Assembly (NCBI GenBank): GCA_049275655.1
Contig: JBASUY010000030.1
Coordinates: 78,446 to 142,445, forward strand
Source: Candidatus Omnitrophota bacterium
Lineage (GTDB): Bacteria > Omnitrophota > Gorgyraeia > Gygaellales > Profunditerraquicolaceae
Reading direction: 5' to 3'
DNA length: 64,000 bases
In this document: positions 47,817 to 53,484 of the stretch, piece after piece
How the letters are laid out: the number at the start of each line of letters is the position of its first letter
Numbering within the stretch: the first letter of the stretch is position 1
Position numbers and translations under genes: made by a program
The notes under the pieces: generated by a model
Databases searched by the model: none
Told to the model about the DNA's origin: nothing
The model's input: only the letters and a program-made list of their open reading frames with translations

Positions 47817-49970
47817 TTATAATAAAGGATTCATAAAAAGCGCTGGGTGCTTAGCCTTCCTGAGAAAATCTAATAGGGGATTAAGAGTAAGAGCGGTATC
47901 TTCGTCAGCAATCTTTTCTAATAGGTCAGGCTCACCGATATCATAGGCTATTTTTTTTAAGTCCTTTTCAAGCAATAGCTTTAGCTCCTTAGATACCCAT
48001 ACCAAGCGCCTTAAGCCTCCTTCTGCTAAGATAAATTTATCGCTCAATATATATCTTCTGGCTATGCCCATAAACCCTGGGTTAGAAGGAATATTTTTAG
48101 CTAAATCAGAGAGGGTAGAAAAATCCATTCCCAGAGGAGTCATTCCGGGATAATTCCTATCTACCGCAATCACCCCGTTTGCCTCCGGAAGAACAGCAAG
48201 GATGCATTCAAATAAACCTGAAGTTGACAAGGGAGCCTTCGTAATAGAATAAAGACTTGCTTCTTTGATAATACTATTGGTTTTATCCGCAACAAACCTA
48301 TTGATCCCTTCCCACTGCCCTAAAGAACTACTTAAAGCCTTTCCCTTAGGTATAGGGCTATTCCAACCATAAGAAACAACCTCAGAAGATACTTTAGCAT
48401 CTAACCAAGAGTAGGCTCCGCACATCCCCGGGCGCTCTGGAGATATGATACAAATATGATTAGGAGAGGCAGACTGGCAAATAAAACAAGAATAATAATT
48501 ATCCACCTCTTCATCTAAAAGCCCTTTTAAGCGCTCGTCCCTTTCGGAGAAAATCCTTCTTGCCATTTTAAGCTTATCCCGCACATCTCCATCCCGGGTA
48601 TAAAGCTTAACTTGGGCCTTATCTATGATACCTGGATACTCCCGGCGTAGCATAGAATATATAATTAAGCCTAAGTGCTTTAGCCTAAACCCGCTCAGGA
48701 AAGCTTGGCGGCTTATCCTAATTAAATTTAGGTCCCTCTGCCCCTCATGCGCCAAGCCAGAGGCGTAGTTAATAAATCTATGGAGCTGGCGCTCTAGGAC
48801 AGGCTCAAAATCTTTTTGCATTTTTTTACCACAAACTTCAACAACCAAAGCTAAAGAAAGAGAATCTTTTTTAGGTAAATCTTGGCTAATATCCGGGCCG
48901 AACAACTCGATAGACCCATCCTCAATATCGTCTTTATCTCTGTAAACCAAAAGCTCAAAAAACAATCCCCCTCTGCCTCCAAACTCAAAGGCAAGCTCTT
49001 CTTCTTTAACCTTCTCTCCTTCATATAAATCAGAATAAGGAACAGGGATATTTATAGGCAAACCGCTTACCTTTATCCCGCAAGATTGCACGCACAAAGC
49101 GGAGATCTTTTTATAATCCGACTGCGTTAGTATGCTGACCGTTGATCCGGGCGCTATGTTATACGGGCCTTCGGGAGTTAAATCGCTTATTATAGGCAAA
49201 TCAAATACTCCCCCCGCTAAAAGAACGCCTAAATCCAATTTTTCTCTCCTTCCCAAGGCGAGAATAAAAGAAGGTATGCGTTTGCGTAAATAACTTTTTA
49301 GATTATTGAATTCTCCGGGGGCTATATTACCGTAAAGCAATGGTATCCTTATCATAAAATTCAAAGCATATATTAAGGAGAGCGGCCCCCCCCTTAAAGG
49401 CAAAATACGCGTACCCATATCTACCCCTACGGTATTATCCTTATATAATAAAGATAGCGTATTAGCACTTAACCCATCAGTAATAAAGCACAAAATATTT
49501 TTAGAATAAAAATCCCTTAGGATATCTATAAATAAAGATGTATTATTCGGCGCTCCGGAAATAATAGCTACCCCGGATAAGCGGCCATCTATAAGCTTAA
49601 GGCCTAAATCGTGCAATTTGTTATCCGATATGAAGCCAGGATCTTCCAGGAAAGGGGTTTTGTTTAATGCCTTTAAAGAGGCTAACGCCTCTTGGCATAA
49701 AAAGAACAAAACTGCCTCACTTAGAGAATCTTGTAGAGAGGGAGAAAGGCTATGCCTGCTAATCTCATCTAAAGCCTTGCTTAAATCACCTAAGTTCTCA
49801 ACTTTGATTTCTAAAAAAAAGTAAATTAAAGGAAGGTAATAACTTGTGCCGGGGAAGCTTACCCTTTTATCCAAACCAAACTTATTTATTGCCCTGCTTA
49901 AAGTTTGGCGTGCTAAAACTAAAACCCTATCTAAGCCTATATCACAAGCTTGCGCCAACCCTGCCAGCAT
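47817..49970 (-). CDS. acetyl-CoA synthase/decarbonylase beta-subunit (AcsB/CdhC) homolog with an apparently degenerate Ni-binding site
   Basis: Collinear similarity to acetogen AcsB over the full 717 aa: N-terminal GTSYYLPLI; central KMQKDFEPVLERQLHRFINYASGLAHEGQRDLNLIRIS; A-cluster [4Fe-4S] ligands SCFICQSASPNHICIISPERPGMCGA (C-x2-C-x8-C-x9-C); C-terminal GMTPLGMDFSTL, GFMGI and HPALFMNPLL. Exactly 67 aa after the last cluster Cys, where the Ni-ligand Cys-Gly-Cys is expected, the sequence reads S-G-L (STSGLFEC). Confidence 0.7.
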   Translation of the reverse strand: MLAGLAQACDIGLDRVLVLARQTLSRAINKFGLDKRVSFPGTSYYLPLIYFFLEIKVENLGDLSKALDEISRHSLSPSLQDSLSEAVLFFLCQEALASLKALNKTPFLEDPGFISDNKLHDLGLKLIDGRLSGVAIISGAPNNTSLFIDILRDFYSKNILCFITDGLSANTLSLLYKDNTVGVDMGTRILPLRGGPLSLIYALNFMIRIPLLYGNIAPGEFNNLKSYLRKRIPSFILALGRREKLDLGVLLAGGVFDLPIISDLTPEGPYNIAPGSTVSILTQSDYKKISALCVQSCGIKVSGLPINIPVPYSDLYEGEKVKEEELAFEFGGRGGLFFELLVYRDKDDIEDGSIELFGPDISQDLPKKDSLSLALVVEVCGKKMQKDFEPVLERQLHRFINYASGLAHEGQRDLNLIRISRQAFLSGFRLKHLGLIIYSMLRREYPGIIDKAQVKLYTRDGDVRDKLKMARRIFSERDERLKGLLDEEVDNYYSCFICQSASPNHICIISPERPGMCGAYSWLDAKVSSEVVSYGWNSPIPKGKALSSSLGQWEGINRFVADKTNSIIKEASLYSITKAPLSTSGLFECILAVLPEANGVIAVDRNYPGMTPLGMDFSTLSDLAKNIPSNPGFMGIARRYILSDKFILAEGGLRRLVWVSKELKLLLEKDLKKIAYDIGEPDLLEKIADEDTALTLNPLLDFLRKAKHPALFMNPLL

Positions 49971-50835
49971 CTTTATTCTCTAACCTGTTAATTATATTAT
50001 CTATTAACATCATGCTTACCGAAAGGCTCTTTTTGCCTATAACACTGCCGCAGGCAAAAATATTGCTGTAATTAGTAGCCATATTTTTATCAACTACTAT
50101 AAAATCATCCTTAATCAACACCTCTGTATTCTTTAAAAAATCAATATTTGATTTATAATTATCCATAAATAAAACTGCACATACCCCTAAGGCCTTGCCA
50201 CTCTTAAGCTTTATTGCCTGCACCTCTCCTTCGCCAATAACCTCAATTAAAGAATCACAGATAACCTCTATCTTTTTAGGTAAGTCTGAATAAGCAAGCA
50301 TAAAAGGGCTTAAAATCTTAACCTCTACCCCGTACCTATCTATTATCGCCTCTGCAACTTTTAAGGCTAGGCTATTTAAACCAACTATGCATACCGGATG
50401 TGCTATAAAACGCTTAAGAAACTCTTTAGTATCATCTAAGGTATATAAACGATAAGCACCTACTTTTCTAGCCCCGGGTATATCCGGAACAACCGGGCTT
50501 CTGCCGGAAGCGATAACTAAAATGTCATAATTAATGCTTCCCTTATCCTTAAAATATACTAAAAACTTTTCCGTATTTATACCGGATACTTTTTTATTCT
50601 TTAAAAAATTAATTCCTGCTTTCTGATAAAAATCCTCGTCGCATAAAAATATATCTTTTTCTTTTACTACTCCGCTTATAAAATCTGGTATCTTTAAATG
50701 GTCGTAGGAAAGGTAACCTTCTTGGCTAAGCAAGGTTATATTACAATCCCTATGCTTAGCCTTTAACCCTAAGGCGATATTATGCCCTGATACTGAAGCT
50801 CCTATAATAACTACATTACCCATCATAATCCGCAA
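49942..50835 (-). CDS. truncated FAD-dependent pyridine nucleotide-disulfide oxidoreductase-family protein
   Basis: N-terminal FAD Rossmann motif VVIIGASVSGHNIA. The second dinucleotide-site region is degenerate (IVGLNSLALKV). Only 297 aa with no dimerisation domain. Overlaps metF and the acsB-like gene. Confidence 0.6.
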   Translation of the reverse strand: MRIMMGNVVIIGASVSGHNIALGLKAKHRDCNITLLSQEGYLSYDHLKIPDFISGVVKEKDIFLCDEDFYQKAGINFLKNKKVSGINTEKFLVYFKDKGSINYDILVIASGRSPVVPDIPGARKVGAYRLYTLDDTKEFLKRFIAHPVCIVGLNSLALKVAEAIIDRYGVEVKILSPFMLAYSDLPKKIEVICDSLIEVIGEGEVQAIKLKSGKALGVCAVLFMDNYKSNIDFLKNTEVLIKDDFIVVDKNMATNYSNIFACGSVIGKKSLSVSMMLIDNIINRLENKDAGRVGASL

Positions 50836-51692
50836 GCGTCTAAGATTTCAGGCAATAGCCTCCCTAAGCCAATAGGCATAATATGCACTCCGTCACACAT
50901 CGGCCTTAGCTTCTTTATAAGGCTTGAGGCTATCTCTATAGCCTTAGCTGTTTTATCCTTAGCCTCTTCCATCTCTTTTATTAAAACTTCAGGGACCACA
51001 ACTCCGGCTACATTTTCGTTCATATATCTGGCCATGGTTGCTGACTTTAAAATGACTATTCCTGCTAAAATCTTAGTATTAAGATGCCTTACCTTCTTTA
51101 AGAAATCTTCAAAGACCTTTAGGTCATAAACTGCCTGAGTCTGAAAGAACTCTGCCCCTGCGGATATCTTTTTTTCCATCTTTATAATCTCCGGCTCTAA
51201 AGGGTCTGCTCCCGGATTAACCACAGCGCCTAAATAAAAATCCGGATGTTTGCCGGTTAATCTATTGCCTTTTAAATCAGACCCGTTTTTAAGCATGCTT
51301 GCTGCCTGAAGTAGTTGTACTGAATCTAAATCAAACACAGGTTTAGCCTCCGGATGGTCTCCTGCTGTAGTATGGTCTCCGGTTAATATCAAAATATTTT
51401 CTATGCCTAAAGCTGCGGCGGACAAAAGGTCTGACTGCAATGCTAAACGATTACGGTCGCGACAGGTTAATTGATATATCGGCTCAAGCCCTTTTTCTCT
51501 TAAGATGCTCGAAACTACTAATGAACCTAACCGCAAGACAGAACTCTGCAGGTCAGTTACATTAAAGGCATCAACCCTGTTACGGATAATCTCAGCCTCC
51601 TCAATTACCTGCTTAGTATCTATACCTTTGGGCGGGCCAATCTCAGAAGTCACCATAAACTTTCCTGAACGTAATTTTTCCCTGAAACTCAT
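50823..51692 (-). CDS. metF: 5,10-methylenetetrahydrofolate reductase
   Basis: MTHFR TIM-barrel family (SFEIGPPKG-like N-terminus; ILTGD), 289 aa. Located between folD and the oxidoreductase. Confidence 0.85.
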   Translation of the reverse strand: MSFREKLRSGKFMVTSEIGPPKGIDTKQVIEEAEIIRNRVDAFNVTDLQSSVLRLGSLVVSSILREKGLEPIYQLTCRDRNRLALQSDLLSAAALGIENILILTGDHTTAGDHPEAKPVFDLDSVQLLQAASMLKNGSDLKGNRLTGKHPDFYLGAVVNPGADPLEPEIIKMEKKISAGAEFFQTQAVYDLKVFEDFLKKVRHLNTKILAGIVILKSATMARYMNENVAGVVVPEVLIKEMEEAKDKTAKAIEIASSLIKKLRPMCDGVHIMPIGLGRLLPEILDACGL

Positions 51693-52561
51693 TTATATCC
51701 CCCGCTTTCTTCTCTATAGCGCTCCTGAATAATAACTACCTCAACTAAATTACGCATAAGCATAGTAACGGTTAAAGGGCCAACACCTCCAGGAACCGGC
51801 GTAATAAAAGCGGCCCTTTTTTCTGCGCTATCAAATTCCACGTCTCCTACGATTTTATCTTTTATCCAGTTAATCCCCACATCTATTACTACAGAACCCT
51901 CTTTAACCCAATCCCCTTTAATTAAATTAGGGATACCTGCGGAAGAGACTAATACCTCTGCCCTGCTAATATGCTCTTTAAGCCTTCCAGATTCGCTTGT
52001 AGCTATATGGCATACTGTAACAGTAGCCATCTTTTGTAACAATAAAAGTGCTAAAGGCCTGCCTATTATCCGGCTATGCCCAACAATAACTATCTCTTTA
52101 CCGTATAAGTCTATATTGCTTTCTGCAATTAATTCCATAACCGCAGCAGGCGTACATGGGAGAATCCCCTCTTCCCCGAGCATGATTTTGCCTAAATTAC
52201 CAGGATGCATACCCTCAACATCCTTAGCCAAATCAATAGAAGCTACTGCCTTTTTATAATTAACATGCTCAGGTAACGGGCTTTGCAAGATAATTCCGTT
52301 TATAGAATTATCTAAATTTAATTCGCCTATAAAATCCAAGAGGCCGTTCTGAGTAGTAGAAAGAGGCAAATTATAAGGTTGGTAACCAATCCCTAACTCC
52401 CGGGCAAGTTTGGCCTGCGCATTAACGTAGCTTTGCGAGCTTAAGCTTTCTCCGATAATAATGCTTGCTAAAAGAGGCTTTACTTTTAAGGAGGATATAC
52501 GCCTTCTTAAAGTGTCTTTTATCTTATCGGCAATAACCCTACCTTCTAATAACCTTGCCAA
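51689..52561 (-). CDS. folD: bifunctional methylene-THF dehydrogenase / methenyl-THF cyclohydrolase
   Basis: FolD motifs (LASIIIGE, VVIVGHSRIIGRPLA, PVPGGVGPLT), 290 aa. Confidence 0.9.
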   Translation of the reverse strand: MARLLEGRVIADKIKDTLRRRISSLKVKPLLASIIIGESLSSQSYVNAQAKLARELGIGYQPYNLPLSTTQNGLLDFIGELNLDNSINGIILQSPLPEHVNYKKAVASIDLAKDVEGMHPGNLGKIMLGEEGILPCTPAAVMELIAESNIDLYGKEIVIVGHSRIIGRPLALLLLQKMATVTVCHIATSESGRLKEHISRAEVLVSSAGIPNLIKGDWVKEGSVVIDVGINWIKDKIVGDVEFDSAEKRAAFITPVPGGVGPLTVTMLMRNLVEVVIIQERYREESGGYK

Positions 52562-53099
52562 AGCTCTCCTCCATTTTAATTCTTATCTTCTTAAGAGCCG
52601 TAGACTTCTTATTAACCTCAGCAGTAATAGCGCGGGAAAATGCCTTGTCATCTAAGCCCTTTAAATTAATCTTAATATTAAAACAAGAAGAAGCAAATCC
52701 TGCTTCAAAAAGAACTGCCGCAATAACAACATCGCTTATCAATTTAGGGTTGCCTTTTCTTATAAGCAAGGGGCATATCTTTATTCCCTCAAAACAGAGC
52801 CTAGCAACCATAAAAGGCACATTTACCGCATCCCTTATATTTTTAGATTTATAGGCAATCGCATCTAAATCAACTAAACGTATAAATTCTTTTCTAAGCC
52901 GCTCACTTTGGCTTAAAGCCTCTTTTAACTTATCCTCATGCTTTAAAAACTTAGGGTTGCCTAAGGTAAAGTTTATCGCCATACTCATCAAGGCTGCAGC
53001 CATAGCAGCGCATAACGCGGCGGCAGAACCTCCTCCCGGGACAGGGAGCCTAGAAGAAAGTTCTTTAATATAATCCTCAAGGGTTTTATCTTTATACAT
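52539..53099 (-). CDS. fchA: methenyl-THF cyclohydrolase / formiminotransferase-cyclodeaminase C-domain family (FchA-like). Start taken at the internal Met (MYKDKTLEDY); the longest ORF extends to 53138
   Basis: FTCD_C signature LPVPGGGSAAALCAAMAAAL. The longer ORF would overlap yraN by 35 nt, so the Met at 53097-53099 is preferred. Confidence 0.7.
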   Translation of the reverse strand: MYKDKTLEDYIKELSSRLPVPGGGSAAALCAAMAAALMSMAINFTLGNPKFLKHEDKLKEALSQSERLRKEFIRLVDLDAIAYKSKNIRDAVNVPFMVARLCFEGIKICPLLIRKGNPKLISDVVIAAVLFEAGFASSCFNIKINLKGLDDKAFSRAITAEVNKKSTALKKIRIKMEESFGKVIRR

Positions 53100-53103
53100 A
53101 TTT

Positions 53104-53484
53104 TTAGTAACTAAAACCGCCACTGACTTCAAAGGCATCTTTAATTAAACTTAACTTAAAAGGAGAAGAAGAAAAATCTACAGAAACTACATCAAACCTT
53201 GCCCTTTTATTTAACAGAGAATTTTCTTTAAGAAAATTTAAAGCTACCTTAGATATCCTCCTCTGTTTTAAAGAAGAGACGGCTTCTTTTGCTAAGCCAA
53301 ACCTACTGCTCCTACGGGATTTTACTTCTATAAAACATAAGGTATCTTTATCTAAAGCTACTATATCTATCTCCCCAAACTTAACTTTATACCTTCGCGC
53401 TATTATTTTATACCCCTTGCCCTTAATAAATCTTACTGCTAAGTCCTCGCCGCTTTTGCCAAGGCTTAATTCTTTTTTAGCCAT
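53104..53484 (-). CDS. yraN: YraN/UPF0102 family endonuclease
   Basis: GE(x)DIVA...EVK motif typical of UPF0102, 126 aa. Conserved pairing with rnhB. Confidence 0.8.
   Translation of the reverse strand: MAKKELSLGKSGEDLAVRFIKGKGYKIIARRYKVKFGEIDIVALDKDTLCFIEVKSRRSSRFGLAKEAVSSLKQRRISKVALNFLKENSLLNKRARFDVVSVDFSSSPFKLSLIKDAFEVSGGFSY

What the first reader, a model, noticed from the sequence alone, without database searches (positions are those of the whole stretch)
47817..49970. AcsB/CdhC (acetyl-CoA synthase) homolog with the Ni-Ni site Cys-Gly-Cys replaced by Ser-Gly-Leu
The 717-aa ORF aligns by eye along its whole length with acetogen AcsB. It keeps the four Cys of the A-cluster [4Fe-4S] in exactly the canonical C-x2-C-x8-C-x9-C spacing (SCFICQSASPNHICIISPERPGMCGA) and the downstream GMTP-GM-FSTL / GFMGI / HPAL-M-P blocks. 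Sixty-seven residues after the fourth Cys, Moorella/Carboxydothermus AcsB carry Cys595-Gly596-Cys597, which ligate the proximal and distal Ni. Here that position reads S-G-L (…APLSTSGLFECILAVLPEANG). No other CxC occurs in the C-terminal domain. The protein could therefore hold the cubane but not the Ni-Ni centre, which is catalytic in every described ACS. This looks like a non-canonical, possibly non-catalytic or differently metallated, AcsB paralog that I do not recognise as described. The ORF is intact, has a good operon context, and keeps its N-terminal (CODH-docking in canonical enzymes) domain.
Basis: partly seen in the sequence, partly recalled or inferred. Interest (0 to 1): 0.88.

Follow-up and report, generated by a model that had tools for sequence, protein, structure and literature searches.

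The report
Acetyl-CoA synthase homolog without nickel site
An uncultured Omnitrophota bacterium carries a full-length, selection-maintained relative of the nickel enzyme acetyl-CoA synthase that keeps its iron-sulfur cluster site but has lost both cysteines that hold the two catalytic nickel ions. It is therefore probably no longer that enzyme, although annotation pipelines and pathway reconstructions would count it as one.

Summary
The 717-aa ORF (47817-49970, minus strand) is an unambiguous AcsB homolog. It keeps the four cubane cysteines, but Ser-Gly-Leu stands where 96 canonical sequences all have Cys-Gly-Cys. It also changes 21 more positions that are at least 97% invariant in those sequences, and the Phe gate is Ala.

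It is not an extra paralog. It sits in the same syntenic slot (fchA-folD-metF-flavoprotein-acsB-TPR-polA) as canonical CGC AcsB in related Omnitrophota. In a neighbour-joining tree, relatives form a nested series of decay: CSC, CGL, CGF, SSL, SGL.

The gene is not a dead relic. dN/dS is 0.14 in the cluster-binding C-terminal domain. No stops or indels occur in the full-length (717-aa) members. One lineage has cleanly deleted the N-terminal domain while keeping the middle and C-terminal domains.

Best reading: a nickel-free, ACS-derived [4Fe-4S] protein that no longer makes or cleaves acetyl-CoA and is retained for another, unknown role.

Among 104 distant family representatives, 38 keep the cubane cysteines but lack at least one Ni-ligand cysteine. 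I found no paper that describes this.

I could not test whether the genome holds CODH, CFeSP, AcsE or a second acsB.

The parts
47817..49970 (-). acsB* ORF: 717 aa, ATG start, a full-length acetyl-CoA synthase homolog that lacks the Ni-Ni ligands.
   Evidence: It scores 709 bits against NCBIfam NF040764, below the 800-bit cutoff. The identical protein P0001 is labelled 'hypothetical protein, Candidatus Omnitrophota bacterium' at NCBI.
49041..49970 (-). N-terminal domain (aa 1-310). In canonical enzymes this is the CODH-docking and CO-tunnel domain. The gating helix is largely kept (G123, K125), but the invariant Arg (C. hydrogenoformans R145) is His120, and the residue equivalent to M. thermoacetica F229 is Tyr213.
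   Evidence: Pfam CODH_A_N. Foldseek TMt 0.81-0.86 to structures containing only the ACS N-domain. Residue mapping. It is 45% identical to the L001 ortholog.
48531..49040 (-). Middle domain (aa 311-480). The invariant Trp is replaced by Leu416 (nt 48723-48725).
   Evidence: Pfam CdhC, residues 308-461. Conservation table.
47820..48530 (-). C-terminal (A-cluster) domain, aa 481-717. It is 86% identical to the L001 ortholog, with dN/dS 0.14.
   Evidence: Foldseek TMt 0.96, rmsd 1.0 A, to the isolated ACS C-terminal domain 3s2x.
48420..48488 (-). Cubane-binding motif CFICQSASPNHICIISPERPGMC (C495, C498, C507, C517). Ala501 (nt 48468-48470) stands where the Phe gate is.
   Evidence: All four Cys are invariant in every homolog that covers them. 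The Phe role is described in PMC11321310 and PMC12289521.
48213..48221 (-). Ser584-Gly585-Leu586 in place of the Ni-binding Cys-Gly-Cys.
48084..48098 (-). KNIPS (aa 625-629) in place of the invariant Gly-Gly-Gly-x-Gln loop that precedes PGFMGI.
49942..50835 (-). Short FAD/NAD(P)-binding flavoprotein (Pyr_redox_2, 297 aa). Its stop overlaps the acsB* start by 29 nt. It is related to CoA-disulfide reductase and NADH oxidase but has no redox-active Cys.
   Evidence: The same gene and overlap occur in L001, L003, L009 and L034, and in the canonical L007.
50823..51692 (-). metF (methylene-THF reductase).
51689..52561 (-). folD (methylene-THF dehydrogenase / cyclohydrolase).
52539..53138 (-). fchA-like methenyl-THF cyclohydrolase (FTCD_C). 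It is the first folate gene of the co-directional cluster.
48870..50030 (-). Hyper-divergent block relative to the closest genome (L001): 50-65% nt identity against about 91% in the flanks, with no indels. It covers the last ~60 nt of the flavoprotein gene and acsB* codons 1 to about 367.

Best explanation
The ORF is the vertical descendant (positional ortholog) of the Omnitrophota acetyl-CoA synthase AcsB. It has lost the di-nickel part of the A-cluster and keeps only the [4Fe-4S] cubane and the ACS fold.

All chemistry of acetyl-CoA synthase takes place on the proximal Ni: CO binding, methyl transfer from the corrinoid protein, C-C bond formation and thiolysis by CoA. That Ni is held by the thiolates of the two lost cysteines plus the bridging cubane cysteine. 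The protein therefore most likely cannot make or cleave acetyl-CoA.

It is nonetheless kept by purifying selection, mainly on the middle and C-terminal domains. It therefore most likely works as a nickel-free Fe-S protein with a secondary, non-ACS role. My best guess is a redox or structural partner within the folate C1 module it is co-transcribed with (flavoprotein-MetF).

What is shown and what is inferred:
- Shown: homology, loss of the ligands, orthology, the graded clade-wide pattern, and selection.
- Inferred: loss of ACS activity (strong inference from enzymology) and the replacement role (weak).
For: 1. Ligand loss with the cubane kept: SGL where all 96 canonical sequences have CGC, the four cubane Cys intact, and no CxC anywhere.

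2. Collateral loss of catalytic hallmarks. Of 109 near-invariant positions, 23 are changed, including W416L and GGGxQ to KNIPS. The Phe gate (F515 in C. hydrogenoformans / F512 in M. thermoacetica) is Ala501 and the F229 equivalent is Tyr. The roles of F229 and F512 are documented in PMC11321310 and PMC12289521.

3. Orthology. The gene order fchA-folD-metF-flavoprotein-acsB-TPR-polA-glgA-coaE-rho is the same in degenerate loci (L001, L003, L033, L034/L035) and in the canonical CGC locus L007.

4. Nested stepwise decay in the neighbour-joining tree: CSC, CGL, CGF, SSL, SGL. The number of changed invariant positions rises along this series: 9 (CSC), 2 (CGL), 11, 20, 21, 23.

5. Selection.
- Window against L001: dN/dS is 0.14 in the C-domain, 0.15 in the middle domain and at most 0.28 in the N-domain. 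There is no stop and no indel despite 36% amino-acid divergence.
- The full-length members of the inner part of the series with both Ni-ligand Cys or the second one lost (SGL, SSL, SGY, CGF) are all exactly 717 aa.
- A near-identical SGY pair gives 12 nonsynonymous to 9 synonymous changes, dN/dS 0.28, binomial P = 0.044 against neutrality.

6. In L033 the N-terminal domain is cleanly deleted, while the middle and C-terminal domains (SSL) remain in the same slot.

7. The fold is preserved: AF2 pLDDT 82, TM 0.79-0.80 to full-length ACS, and TMt 0.96 for the C-domain.

8. The 29-nt stop/start overlap with the flavoprotein gene is conserved.
Against: - No biochemical data exist for any member.
- The proposed replacement role is a guess. 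The operon arrangement and the overlap with the flavoprotein gene are ancestral and also occur with canonical CGC AcsB (L007, L009). They therefore do not speak specifically for a new partnership.
- Only three derived residues are shared by all five fully degenerate members: C584S, L497I and V449I. There is thus no sign of a newly built active site.
- Constraint is weaker than on most neighbours. AcsB* is 64% identical between the window and L001, against 82-99% for the neighbours. In the close SGY pair its dN is the second highest of the 18 genes compared.
- I could not establish whether CFeSP, AcsE, CODH, Ni-insertion factors or a second canonical acsB exist elsewhere in this genome.
Confidence: 0.65

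Rival explanations
1. Slow gene decay. The lineage stopped using the Wood-Ljungdahl carbonyl branch, and acsB is a functionless relic on its way to being lost. The remaining constraint is residual, for example avoidance of a misfolding-prone product or polar effects in the operon.
For: - Invariant residues erode progressively along the clade.
- AcsB* is the most diverged protein of the locus: 64% identity against 82-99% for neighbours.
- dN/dS (0.24-0.31) is at the top of the range for the locus.
- The N-domain is lost outright in one lineage.
- Omnitrophota have reduced genomes, and many have only a partial WLP (PMC10066038).
Against: - C-domain dN/dS is 0.14, with about 86% identity.
- There are no stops or frameshifts in at least seven independent degenerate sequences. 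The length is exactly 717 aa across lineages that are only 45-65% identical. Neutral drift to 36% amino-acid divergence would be expected to introduce many stops and indels (inference).
- The cubane Cys and about 80% of the family-invariant positions are still intact.
- The N-domain deletion in L033 is in frame and leaves an intact 424-aa ORF.
Confidence: 0.2
2. It is still an acetyl-CoA synthase/decarbonylase, or a related C1 enzyme, that builds a different metal site. For example, a single metal could be held on the bridging Cys498 with Ser584 or backbone ligands. Alternatively, cysteines could be supplied in trans by a partner protein.
For: - Ser at position 584 is strictly conserved in all five fully degenerate members.
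- The bridging Cys and the surrounding fold are intact.
- The gene stays in a folate C1 operon.
- The proximal site of ACS is known to be promiscuous for Ni/Cu/Zn: a NiZn form is among the solved structures (1oao, listed).
Against: - Both thiolates are gone, and position 586 is a non-ligand residue that is not even conserved (L, L, L, Y, L). The middle Gly is also variable.
- No compensating Cys or His is conserved in the clade. C297 occurs in P0001 and P0003 but not in P0002.
- The Phe gate and another alcove residue needed for productive CO binding are also changed.
- No precedent is known to me.
Confidence: 0.07
3. It is a non-catalytic regulatory or scaffolding partner (a pseudoenzyme) for a second, canonical AcsB or CODH/ACS complex encoded elsewhere in the same genome.
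For: Pseudoenzymes commonly regulate active paralogs (general knowledge). The N-domain fold is still present in this genome.
Against: - It occupies the ancestral acsB slot, so it is the ortholog and not a duplicate.
- The genome-contig scan returned only one acsB locus from the assembly of the closest relative, CAZIUK01. This is a weak negative because the scan works from short peptide patterns.
- No CODH, CFeSP or acsE lies in the 64-kb window.
Confidence: 0.08

Closest known systems
Bacterial acetyl-CoA synthase AcsB (CODH/ACS alpha subunit) of Moorella thermoacetica, Carboxydothermus hydrogenoformans and Clostridium autoethanogenum (PDB 1OAO, 1RU3, 7ZKJ, 6YTT)
   Same: - Three-domain architecture along the whole length, with 36-37% identity.
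- Four cubane cysteines with identical spacing.
- Most family-invariant residues are kept.
- The predicted fold matches.
   Different: - Cys-Gly-Cys is Ser-Gly-Leu, so there are no ligands for the proximal or distal Ni.
- The Phe gate is Ala, the F229 equivalent is Tyr, and the invariant Trp and GGGxQ loop are lost.
- It falls below the NCBIfam equivalog cutoffs.
- No CODH, CFeSP or MeTr genes are nearby.
CODH-less 'partial Wood-Ljungdahl' AcsB, as described for Dehalococcoides mccartyi (Zhuang et al. 2014, cited in PMC9324843) and for Velamenicoccus archaeovorus-type Omnitrophota (PMC10066038)
   Same: - acsB is not adjacent to cooS/acsA.
- It is linked to folate C1 genes.
- The phylum is the same. 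The canonical Omnitrophota orthologs (e.g. P0009 in L007) occupy exactly this locus.
   Different: Those proteins keep CGC (P0070 and P0091 from Dehalococcoidia/Chloroflexota, and P0005-P0013 from Omnitrophota). They are thought to cleave or form acetyl-CoA. This one cannot bind the nickels.
Archaeal CdhC (ACDS beta subunit), which lacks the N-terminal domain
   Same: The related SSL protein P0263 (424 aa, L033) has converged on the CdhC-like two-domain layout by deleting the N-domain. The window protein matches CdhC models over residues 307-710.
   Different: CdhC keeps CGC and works inside the ACDS complex. In the window protein the N-domain is still present.
Pseudoenzymes derived from metalloenzymes (general class)
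   Same: The fold is kept and the catalytic metal ligands are lost, while purifying selection continues.
   Different: No partner or regulatory role has been demonstrated here. The comparison rests on general knowledge and not on a test.

Membership tests
Acetyl-CoA synthase (AcsB/CdhC, EC 2.3.1.169) | Homologous three-domain (or, for CdhC, two-domain) ACS fold | tested here: met
   Pfam PF18537 + PF03598 + PF19436. phmmer 1.7e-155 to ACS structures. AF2 model with TM 0.79-0.80 to 6ytt_D.
Acetyl-CoA synthase (AcsB/CdhC, EC 2.3.1.169) | Four Cys that bind the [4Fe-4S] part of the A-cluster (M. thermoacetica C506/C509/C518/C528) | tested here: met
   C495, C498, C507 and C517 are aligned and have the same spacing.
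Acetyl-CoA synthase (AcsB/CdhC, EC 2.3.1.169) | Cys-Gly-Cys (M. thermoacetica C595-G596-C597) that ligates the proximal and distal Ni | tested here: not met
   S584-G585-L586 stands in the column that is CGC in all 96 canonical sequences. There is no CxC anywhere in the protein.
Acetyl-CoA synthase (AcsB/CdhC, EC 2.3.1.169) | CO alcove and gate residues (M. thermoacetica F512 / C. hydrogenoformans F515; M. thermoacetica F229) | tested here: not met
   The residues are Ala501 and Tyr213. Their roles are taken from PMC11321310 and PMC12289521.
Acetyl-CoA synthase (AcsB/CdhC, EC 2.3.1.169) | Score above the curated equivalog cutoff (NCBIfam NF040764 / NF007078 / TIGR00316) | tested here: not met
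   Scores against cutoffs: 709 vs 800, 690 vs 809, 326 vs 356. NCBI names the identical protein 'hypothetical protein'.
Acetyl-CoA synthase (AcsB/CdhC, EC 2.3.1.169) | Co-occurrence with the corrinoid Fe-S protein (acsC/acsD), methyltransferase acsE, and CODH or a CO source | tested here: inconclusive
   None of these lies in the 64-kb window. Canonical orthologs also lack them within 10 kb, so this is uninformative. The rest of the genome was not available.
Acetyl-CoA synthase (AcsB/CdhC, EC 2.3.1.169) | Ni content and acetyl-CoA synthesis or CO-exchange activity | not testable with these tools
   This needs biochemistry.
Omnitrophota AcsB orthologous group (positional) | Same syntenic slot and nesting inside the Omnitrophota AcsB clade | tested here: met
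   Synteny. Neighbour-joining tree.

The most novel reading that the evidence does not exclude
The window protein may be one member of a widespread and so far unrecognised class of nickel-free, ACS/CdhC-derived [4Fe-4S] proteins with a function of their own.

Evidence for breadth:
- Among 104 family representatives (50% identity clusters, drawn from the 150 best hits) that cover the site, 38 keep all four cubane Cys but lack one or both Ni-ligand Cys.
- They include an orphan gene in a Tara Oceans marine archaeon with no WLP genes within 8 kb (L032).
- They include an orphan full-length SGL protein next to trkAH (L036).
- They include the Omnitrophota clade, where selection on the middle and C-terminal domains persists after loss of the Ni site and even after loss of the N-domain.
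Probability: 0.35. Interest if true: 0.8.

Novelty: new variant of a known kind. Interest (0 to 1): 0.62.

Why it matters
1. Acetyl-CoA synthase is the signature enzyme of the Wood-Ljungdahl pathway, and every characterised member needs the Ni-Ni site. An ortholog that is maintained by selection without it shows that the ACS scaffold can be kept for something else. It also gives a natural series (CGC, CSC, CGL/CGF, SSL/SGL/SGY, N-domain deleted) for studying how a complex metallocluster enzyme is dismantled.

2. There is a practical consequence for annotation. Pfam, KEGG-style and PGAP annotation call such proteins ACS. The SGY cluster is named 'acetyl-CoA decarbonylase/synthase complex subunit alpha/beta' at NCBI. 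Phylum-level reconstructions infer WLP/acetogenesis in Omnitrophota from marker genes that include acsABCDE (PMC10066038). For this subclade, and possibly for many other lineages, that inference would be wrong.

3. If the broader class is real, about a third of the divergent ACS-like sequence clusters have an unknown, nickel-independent function.

Tried and rejected
- Sequencing or assembly artefact: rejected. There are 14 contigs with the identical protein, the same motif occurs in a 64%-identical ortholog, and the pattern holds across the clade.

- Misalignment of the CGC column: rejected. The flanking P-x-[ST]-[ST] and [FC]-E-C anchors align without gaps in the HMMER and MAFFT alignments.

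- Extra paralog: rejected in favour of positional ortholog.

- dN/dS from the identical-protein loci L001 and L002: useless, because the DNA is identical.

- Simple 'relaxed selection' as the cause of the 64% identity to L001: insufficient. Synonymous and four-fold sites are themselves 2-3 times more diverged than in the flanks. I looked for a donor lineage for the N-terminal block and found none.

- Search for newly conserved residues that would mark a new active site: only C584S, L497I and V449I turned up.

- Genome-wide search for a second acsB or for cooS/acsCDE:
  - The single genome-contig scan did not contain the window's own genome. It gave one locus for the relative CAZIUK01.
  - All named ORFs of the window except 4 short ones were scanned, and none is a CODH/CFeSP/AcsE gene.

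- Literature: searches (on Omnitrophota WLP and Ni-ligand-less ACS homologs), plus 48 and 56 run for residue roles and the Dehalococcoides precedent, found no description of Ni-ligand-less ACS homologs. Adam et al. 2018 was not in the library.

- I recalled Trp418 of M. thermoacetica as the CoA-sensing Trp. By my offset the lost Trp maps to about M. thermoacetica 427, so I make no functional claim for it.
Full report
**The observation**

The reported coordinates hold a 717-aa ORF with an ATG start, on the minus strand. Pfam finds all three ACS domains: CODH_A_N at 22-94, CdhC at 308-461 and ACS_CODH_B_C at 474-717. phmmer against PDB aligns residues 20-717 to the Carboxydothermus hydrogenoformans and Moorella thermoacetica acetyl-CoA synthases (1.7e-155 and 8.5e-152).

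In that alignment C495, C498, C507 and C517 match the cubane cysteines. S584-G585-L586 lies exactly under C-G-C. The protein has no CxC at all. The best PDB hit is, tellingly, the F515A tunnel variant (8cjc), because the query also has Ala (A501) at the Phe gate.

NCBIfam scores fall below every curated ACS cutoff, for example 709 against 800. The identical protein is on record from 14 contigs as a 'hypothetical protein' of a Candidatus Omnitrophota MAG.

**How far the change goes**

I aligned 108 homologs. In 96 canonical sequences, 109 positions are at least 97% invariant. The window protein differs at 23 of them:
- the two Ni-ligand Cys;
- an invariant Trp (L416);
- the GGGxQ loop before PGFMGI (KNIPS here);
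- R120H, which is C. hydrogenoformans Arg145 of the gating helix (PMC12289521);
- G193R, R297C and R322K;
- three residues next to the cubane (L497I, A502S, L516M).

The equivalent of M. thermoacetica F229 is Tyr213. In M. thermoacetica, F229A cuts CO affinity at least 30-fold. The equivalent variant (F209A) in C. autoethanogenum fails to restore autotrophic growth to an acsB deletion strain (PMC11321310). The four cubane Cys, His505 and most structural positions are intact.

AlphaFold2 gives pLDDT 82. Foldseek returns only ACS structures, with TM 0.79-0.80 for the full length and TMt 0.96 for the C-domain.

**Ortholog, not paralog, and a clade-wide decay series**

The gene is the last of a co-directional cluster: yraN, fchA, folD, metF, a short flavoprotein, then acsB*. 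It is followed by a TPR gene, polA, glgA, coaE and rho.

Exactly this order is found around degenerate homologs:
- SGL in L001;
- CGF in L003;
- CGL in L006;
- CSC in L004;
- SGY in L034/L035;
- SSL in L033.

The same order surrounds canonical CGC AcsB of other Omnitrophota (L007; L008 and L009 in part).

A neighbour-joining tree places the degenerate proteins as one long-branched, nested group inside Omnitrophota. In order they are CSC, CGL, CGF, SSL, SGL, and the number of lost invariant positions rises along this order: 9 (CSC), 2 (CGL), 11, 20, 21, 23. Long-branch attraction could exaggerate the monophyly, but the synteny agrees with it. P0102 (SSL) is an independent case on another branch.

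**Is it still under selection?**

Window against L001:
- The neighbouring proteins are 82-99.5% identical, but AcsB* is only 64% identical.
- Codon analysis gives dN/dS of 0.24 for the whole gene, 0.14 for the C-domain, 0.15 for the middle domain and at most 0.28 for the N-domain, where dS is saturated.
- There is not a single indel or stop.

The 717-aa length is identical in the SGL, SSL, SGY and CGF lineages. A nearly identical SGY pair (L034/L035) gives 12 nonsynonymous to 9 synonymous codon changes. That is dN/dS 0.28, with P = 0.044 against neutrality.

In L033 the N-terminal domain has been removed in frame. A 424-aa middle plus C-terminal protein (SSL) remains in the same slot.

Together these results argue that the cluster-binding core is still useful, while the CODH-docking domain has become dispensable.

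**Mechanism**

Established enzymology places every ACS step on the proximal Ni. That Ni is held by the bridging cubane Cys and the two Cys of CGC. The distal Ni is held by the same two thiolates and two backbone amides.

With Ser and Leu at these positions, and no conserved substitute ligands, I infer that the protein cannot form the Ni-Ni site and so is not an acetyl-CoA synthase or decarbonylase. What remains is a standard four-Cys [4Fe-4S] site in a conserved two-domain core.

The replacement role is unknown. The most economical guess is a redox or structural partner of the folate C1 enzymes it is co-transcribed with. The stop of the flavoprotein gene overlaps the acsB* start by 29 nt in the full-length (717-aa) degenerate loci. 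However, canonical orthologs show the same arrangement, so this is weak evidence. The flavoprotein is a CoADR/NADH-oxidase-like FAD/NAD module without the redox Cys.

Rival explanations are slow decay of a useless gene, an unusual metal site, and a pseudoenzyme serving a second canonical ACS. They are weighed in the report sections.

**Breadth**

A full HMMER scan of 1.84 billion cluster representatives with residues 300-717 found 758 family members. Of the 150 best hits, 104 cover both motifs:
- 64 have CxC;
- 38 keep all four cubane Cys but lack one or both Ni-ligand Cys (20 lack both, 11 lack the second, 7 lack the first).

The list is ranked by similarity to a degenerate query, and 50% clustering over-counts fast-evolving lineages. 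The fraction is therefore not a census.

Two such proteins sit as orphans with no WLP genes nearby: P0159 in a Tara Oceans archaeal contig (L032) and P0147 next to trkAH (L036).

NCBI names the SGY cluster 'acetyl-CoA decarbonylase/synthase complex subunit alpha/beta'.

Searches of the held literature on this point, plus two run for other purposes, found no description of Ni-ligand-less ACS homologs. The Omnitrophota survey scores the WLP from marker genes that include acsABCDE (PMC10066038).

**Limits**

I could not see the rest of the genome. The presence of CFeSP, AcsE, CODH, Ni-insertion factors or a second acsB is therefore untested. The window itself holds none. The tree is distance-based. 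No biochemical data exist.

**Verdict**

This is a real, intact, selected AcsB ortholog without the catalytic Ni-Ni site. It is a new variant of a known enzyme family and probably a nickel-free Fe-S protein of unknown role. Interest is moderate to high (0.62). Interest would be higher if the family-wide class of Ni-free ACS-like proteins proves to be functional.

Noticed in passing
window 48870-50030 (acsB* codons 1 to about 367 plus the last ~60 nt of the flavoprotein gene), compared with L001: A hyper-divergent block lies inside otherwise ~91% identical genomes.
- Nucleotide identity is 50-65% with zero indels. It then steps to about 75% (48830-48590) and about 88% beyond.
- Four-fold degenerate sites differ at 59% in the N half and 40% in the C half, against 21.5% in 16 flanking genes. 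Synonymous divergence itself is therefore elevated.
- This suggests an anciently diverged or imported allele, or long-term polymorphism, rather than mere relaxed constraint.
- No donor lineage was found.
   Followed up: partly
L033 4782-6056 (protein P0263): In another Omnitrophota lineage the same syntenic slot holds a 424-aa AcsB* (SSL motif). Its whole N-terminal CODH-docking domain has been deleted in frame. It begins 69 nt after the flavoprotein gene instead of overlapping it.
   Followed up: partly
proteins P0104 (912 aa) and P0107 (alignment): Two AcsB homologs carry an intein (Hint / LAGLIDADG / intein-splicing Pfam domains). In P0104 it is inserted immediately before the Cys-Gly-Cys Ni-binding motif, in the most conserved part of the active site.
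   Followed up: no
proteins P0096, P0098, P0100, P0101: About 1200-aa fusions of AcsB with a CdhD (corrinoid Fe-S protein subunit, PF03599) domain. One is labelled Anaerolineales. All keep CGC.
   Followed up: no
proteins P0006-P0008, P0011-P0014, P0016, P0020: Many Omnitrophota AcsB are 838-865 aa long, about 120 aa more than the 717-727-aa forms. I did not locate or characterise the extra segment.
   Followed up: no
L032 8001-9332 (P0159) and L036 3620-5737 (P0147): These are orphan ACS/CdhC-like genes that keep the cubane Cys but read TGL or SGL at the Ni site.
- P0159 is in a Tara Oceans archaeal contig among housekeeping genes.
- P0147 is next to trkA/trkH and a zinc-ribbon gene.
- Neither has WLP genes nearby.
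   Followed up: partly
window 1-64000: All of the roughly 60 credible genes in the 64-kb window are on the minus strand. The '+' ORFs in the list are short and overlap minus-strand genes. This is an unusually long unidirectional stretch. GC skew and replication orientation were not examined.
   Followed up: no
window 53104-53484 / 52539-53138, against L004 4249-5940 and L008 5821-7470: Relatives carry fhs (formate-THF ligase) between yraN and fchA. The window, L001, L006 and L007 do not. I do not know whether fhs is elsewhere in this genome.
   Followed up: no
window 49942-50835: The conserved 297-aa flavoprotein between metF and acsB resembles CoA-disulfide reductase and NADH oxidase. It lacks the C-terminal dimerisation domain, and it has Leu where CoADR has the redox-active Cys (SYDHL against SYAQC). 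Its role next to MetF and AcsB in Omnitrophota is undefined.
   Followed up: partly
locus L010 (contig CAZIUK010000001.1): The genome of the closest relative is labelled 'uncultured Planctomycetales bacterium' in ENA. Its syntenic relatives are labelled Candidatus Omnitrophota at NCBI. This is probably a taxonomic label inconsistency.
   Followed up: no
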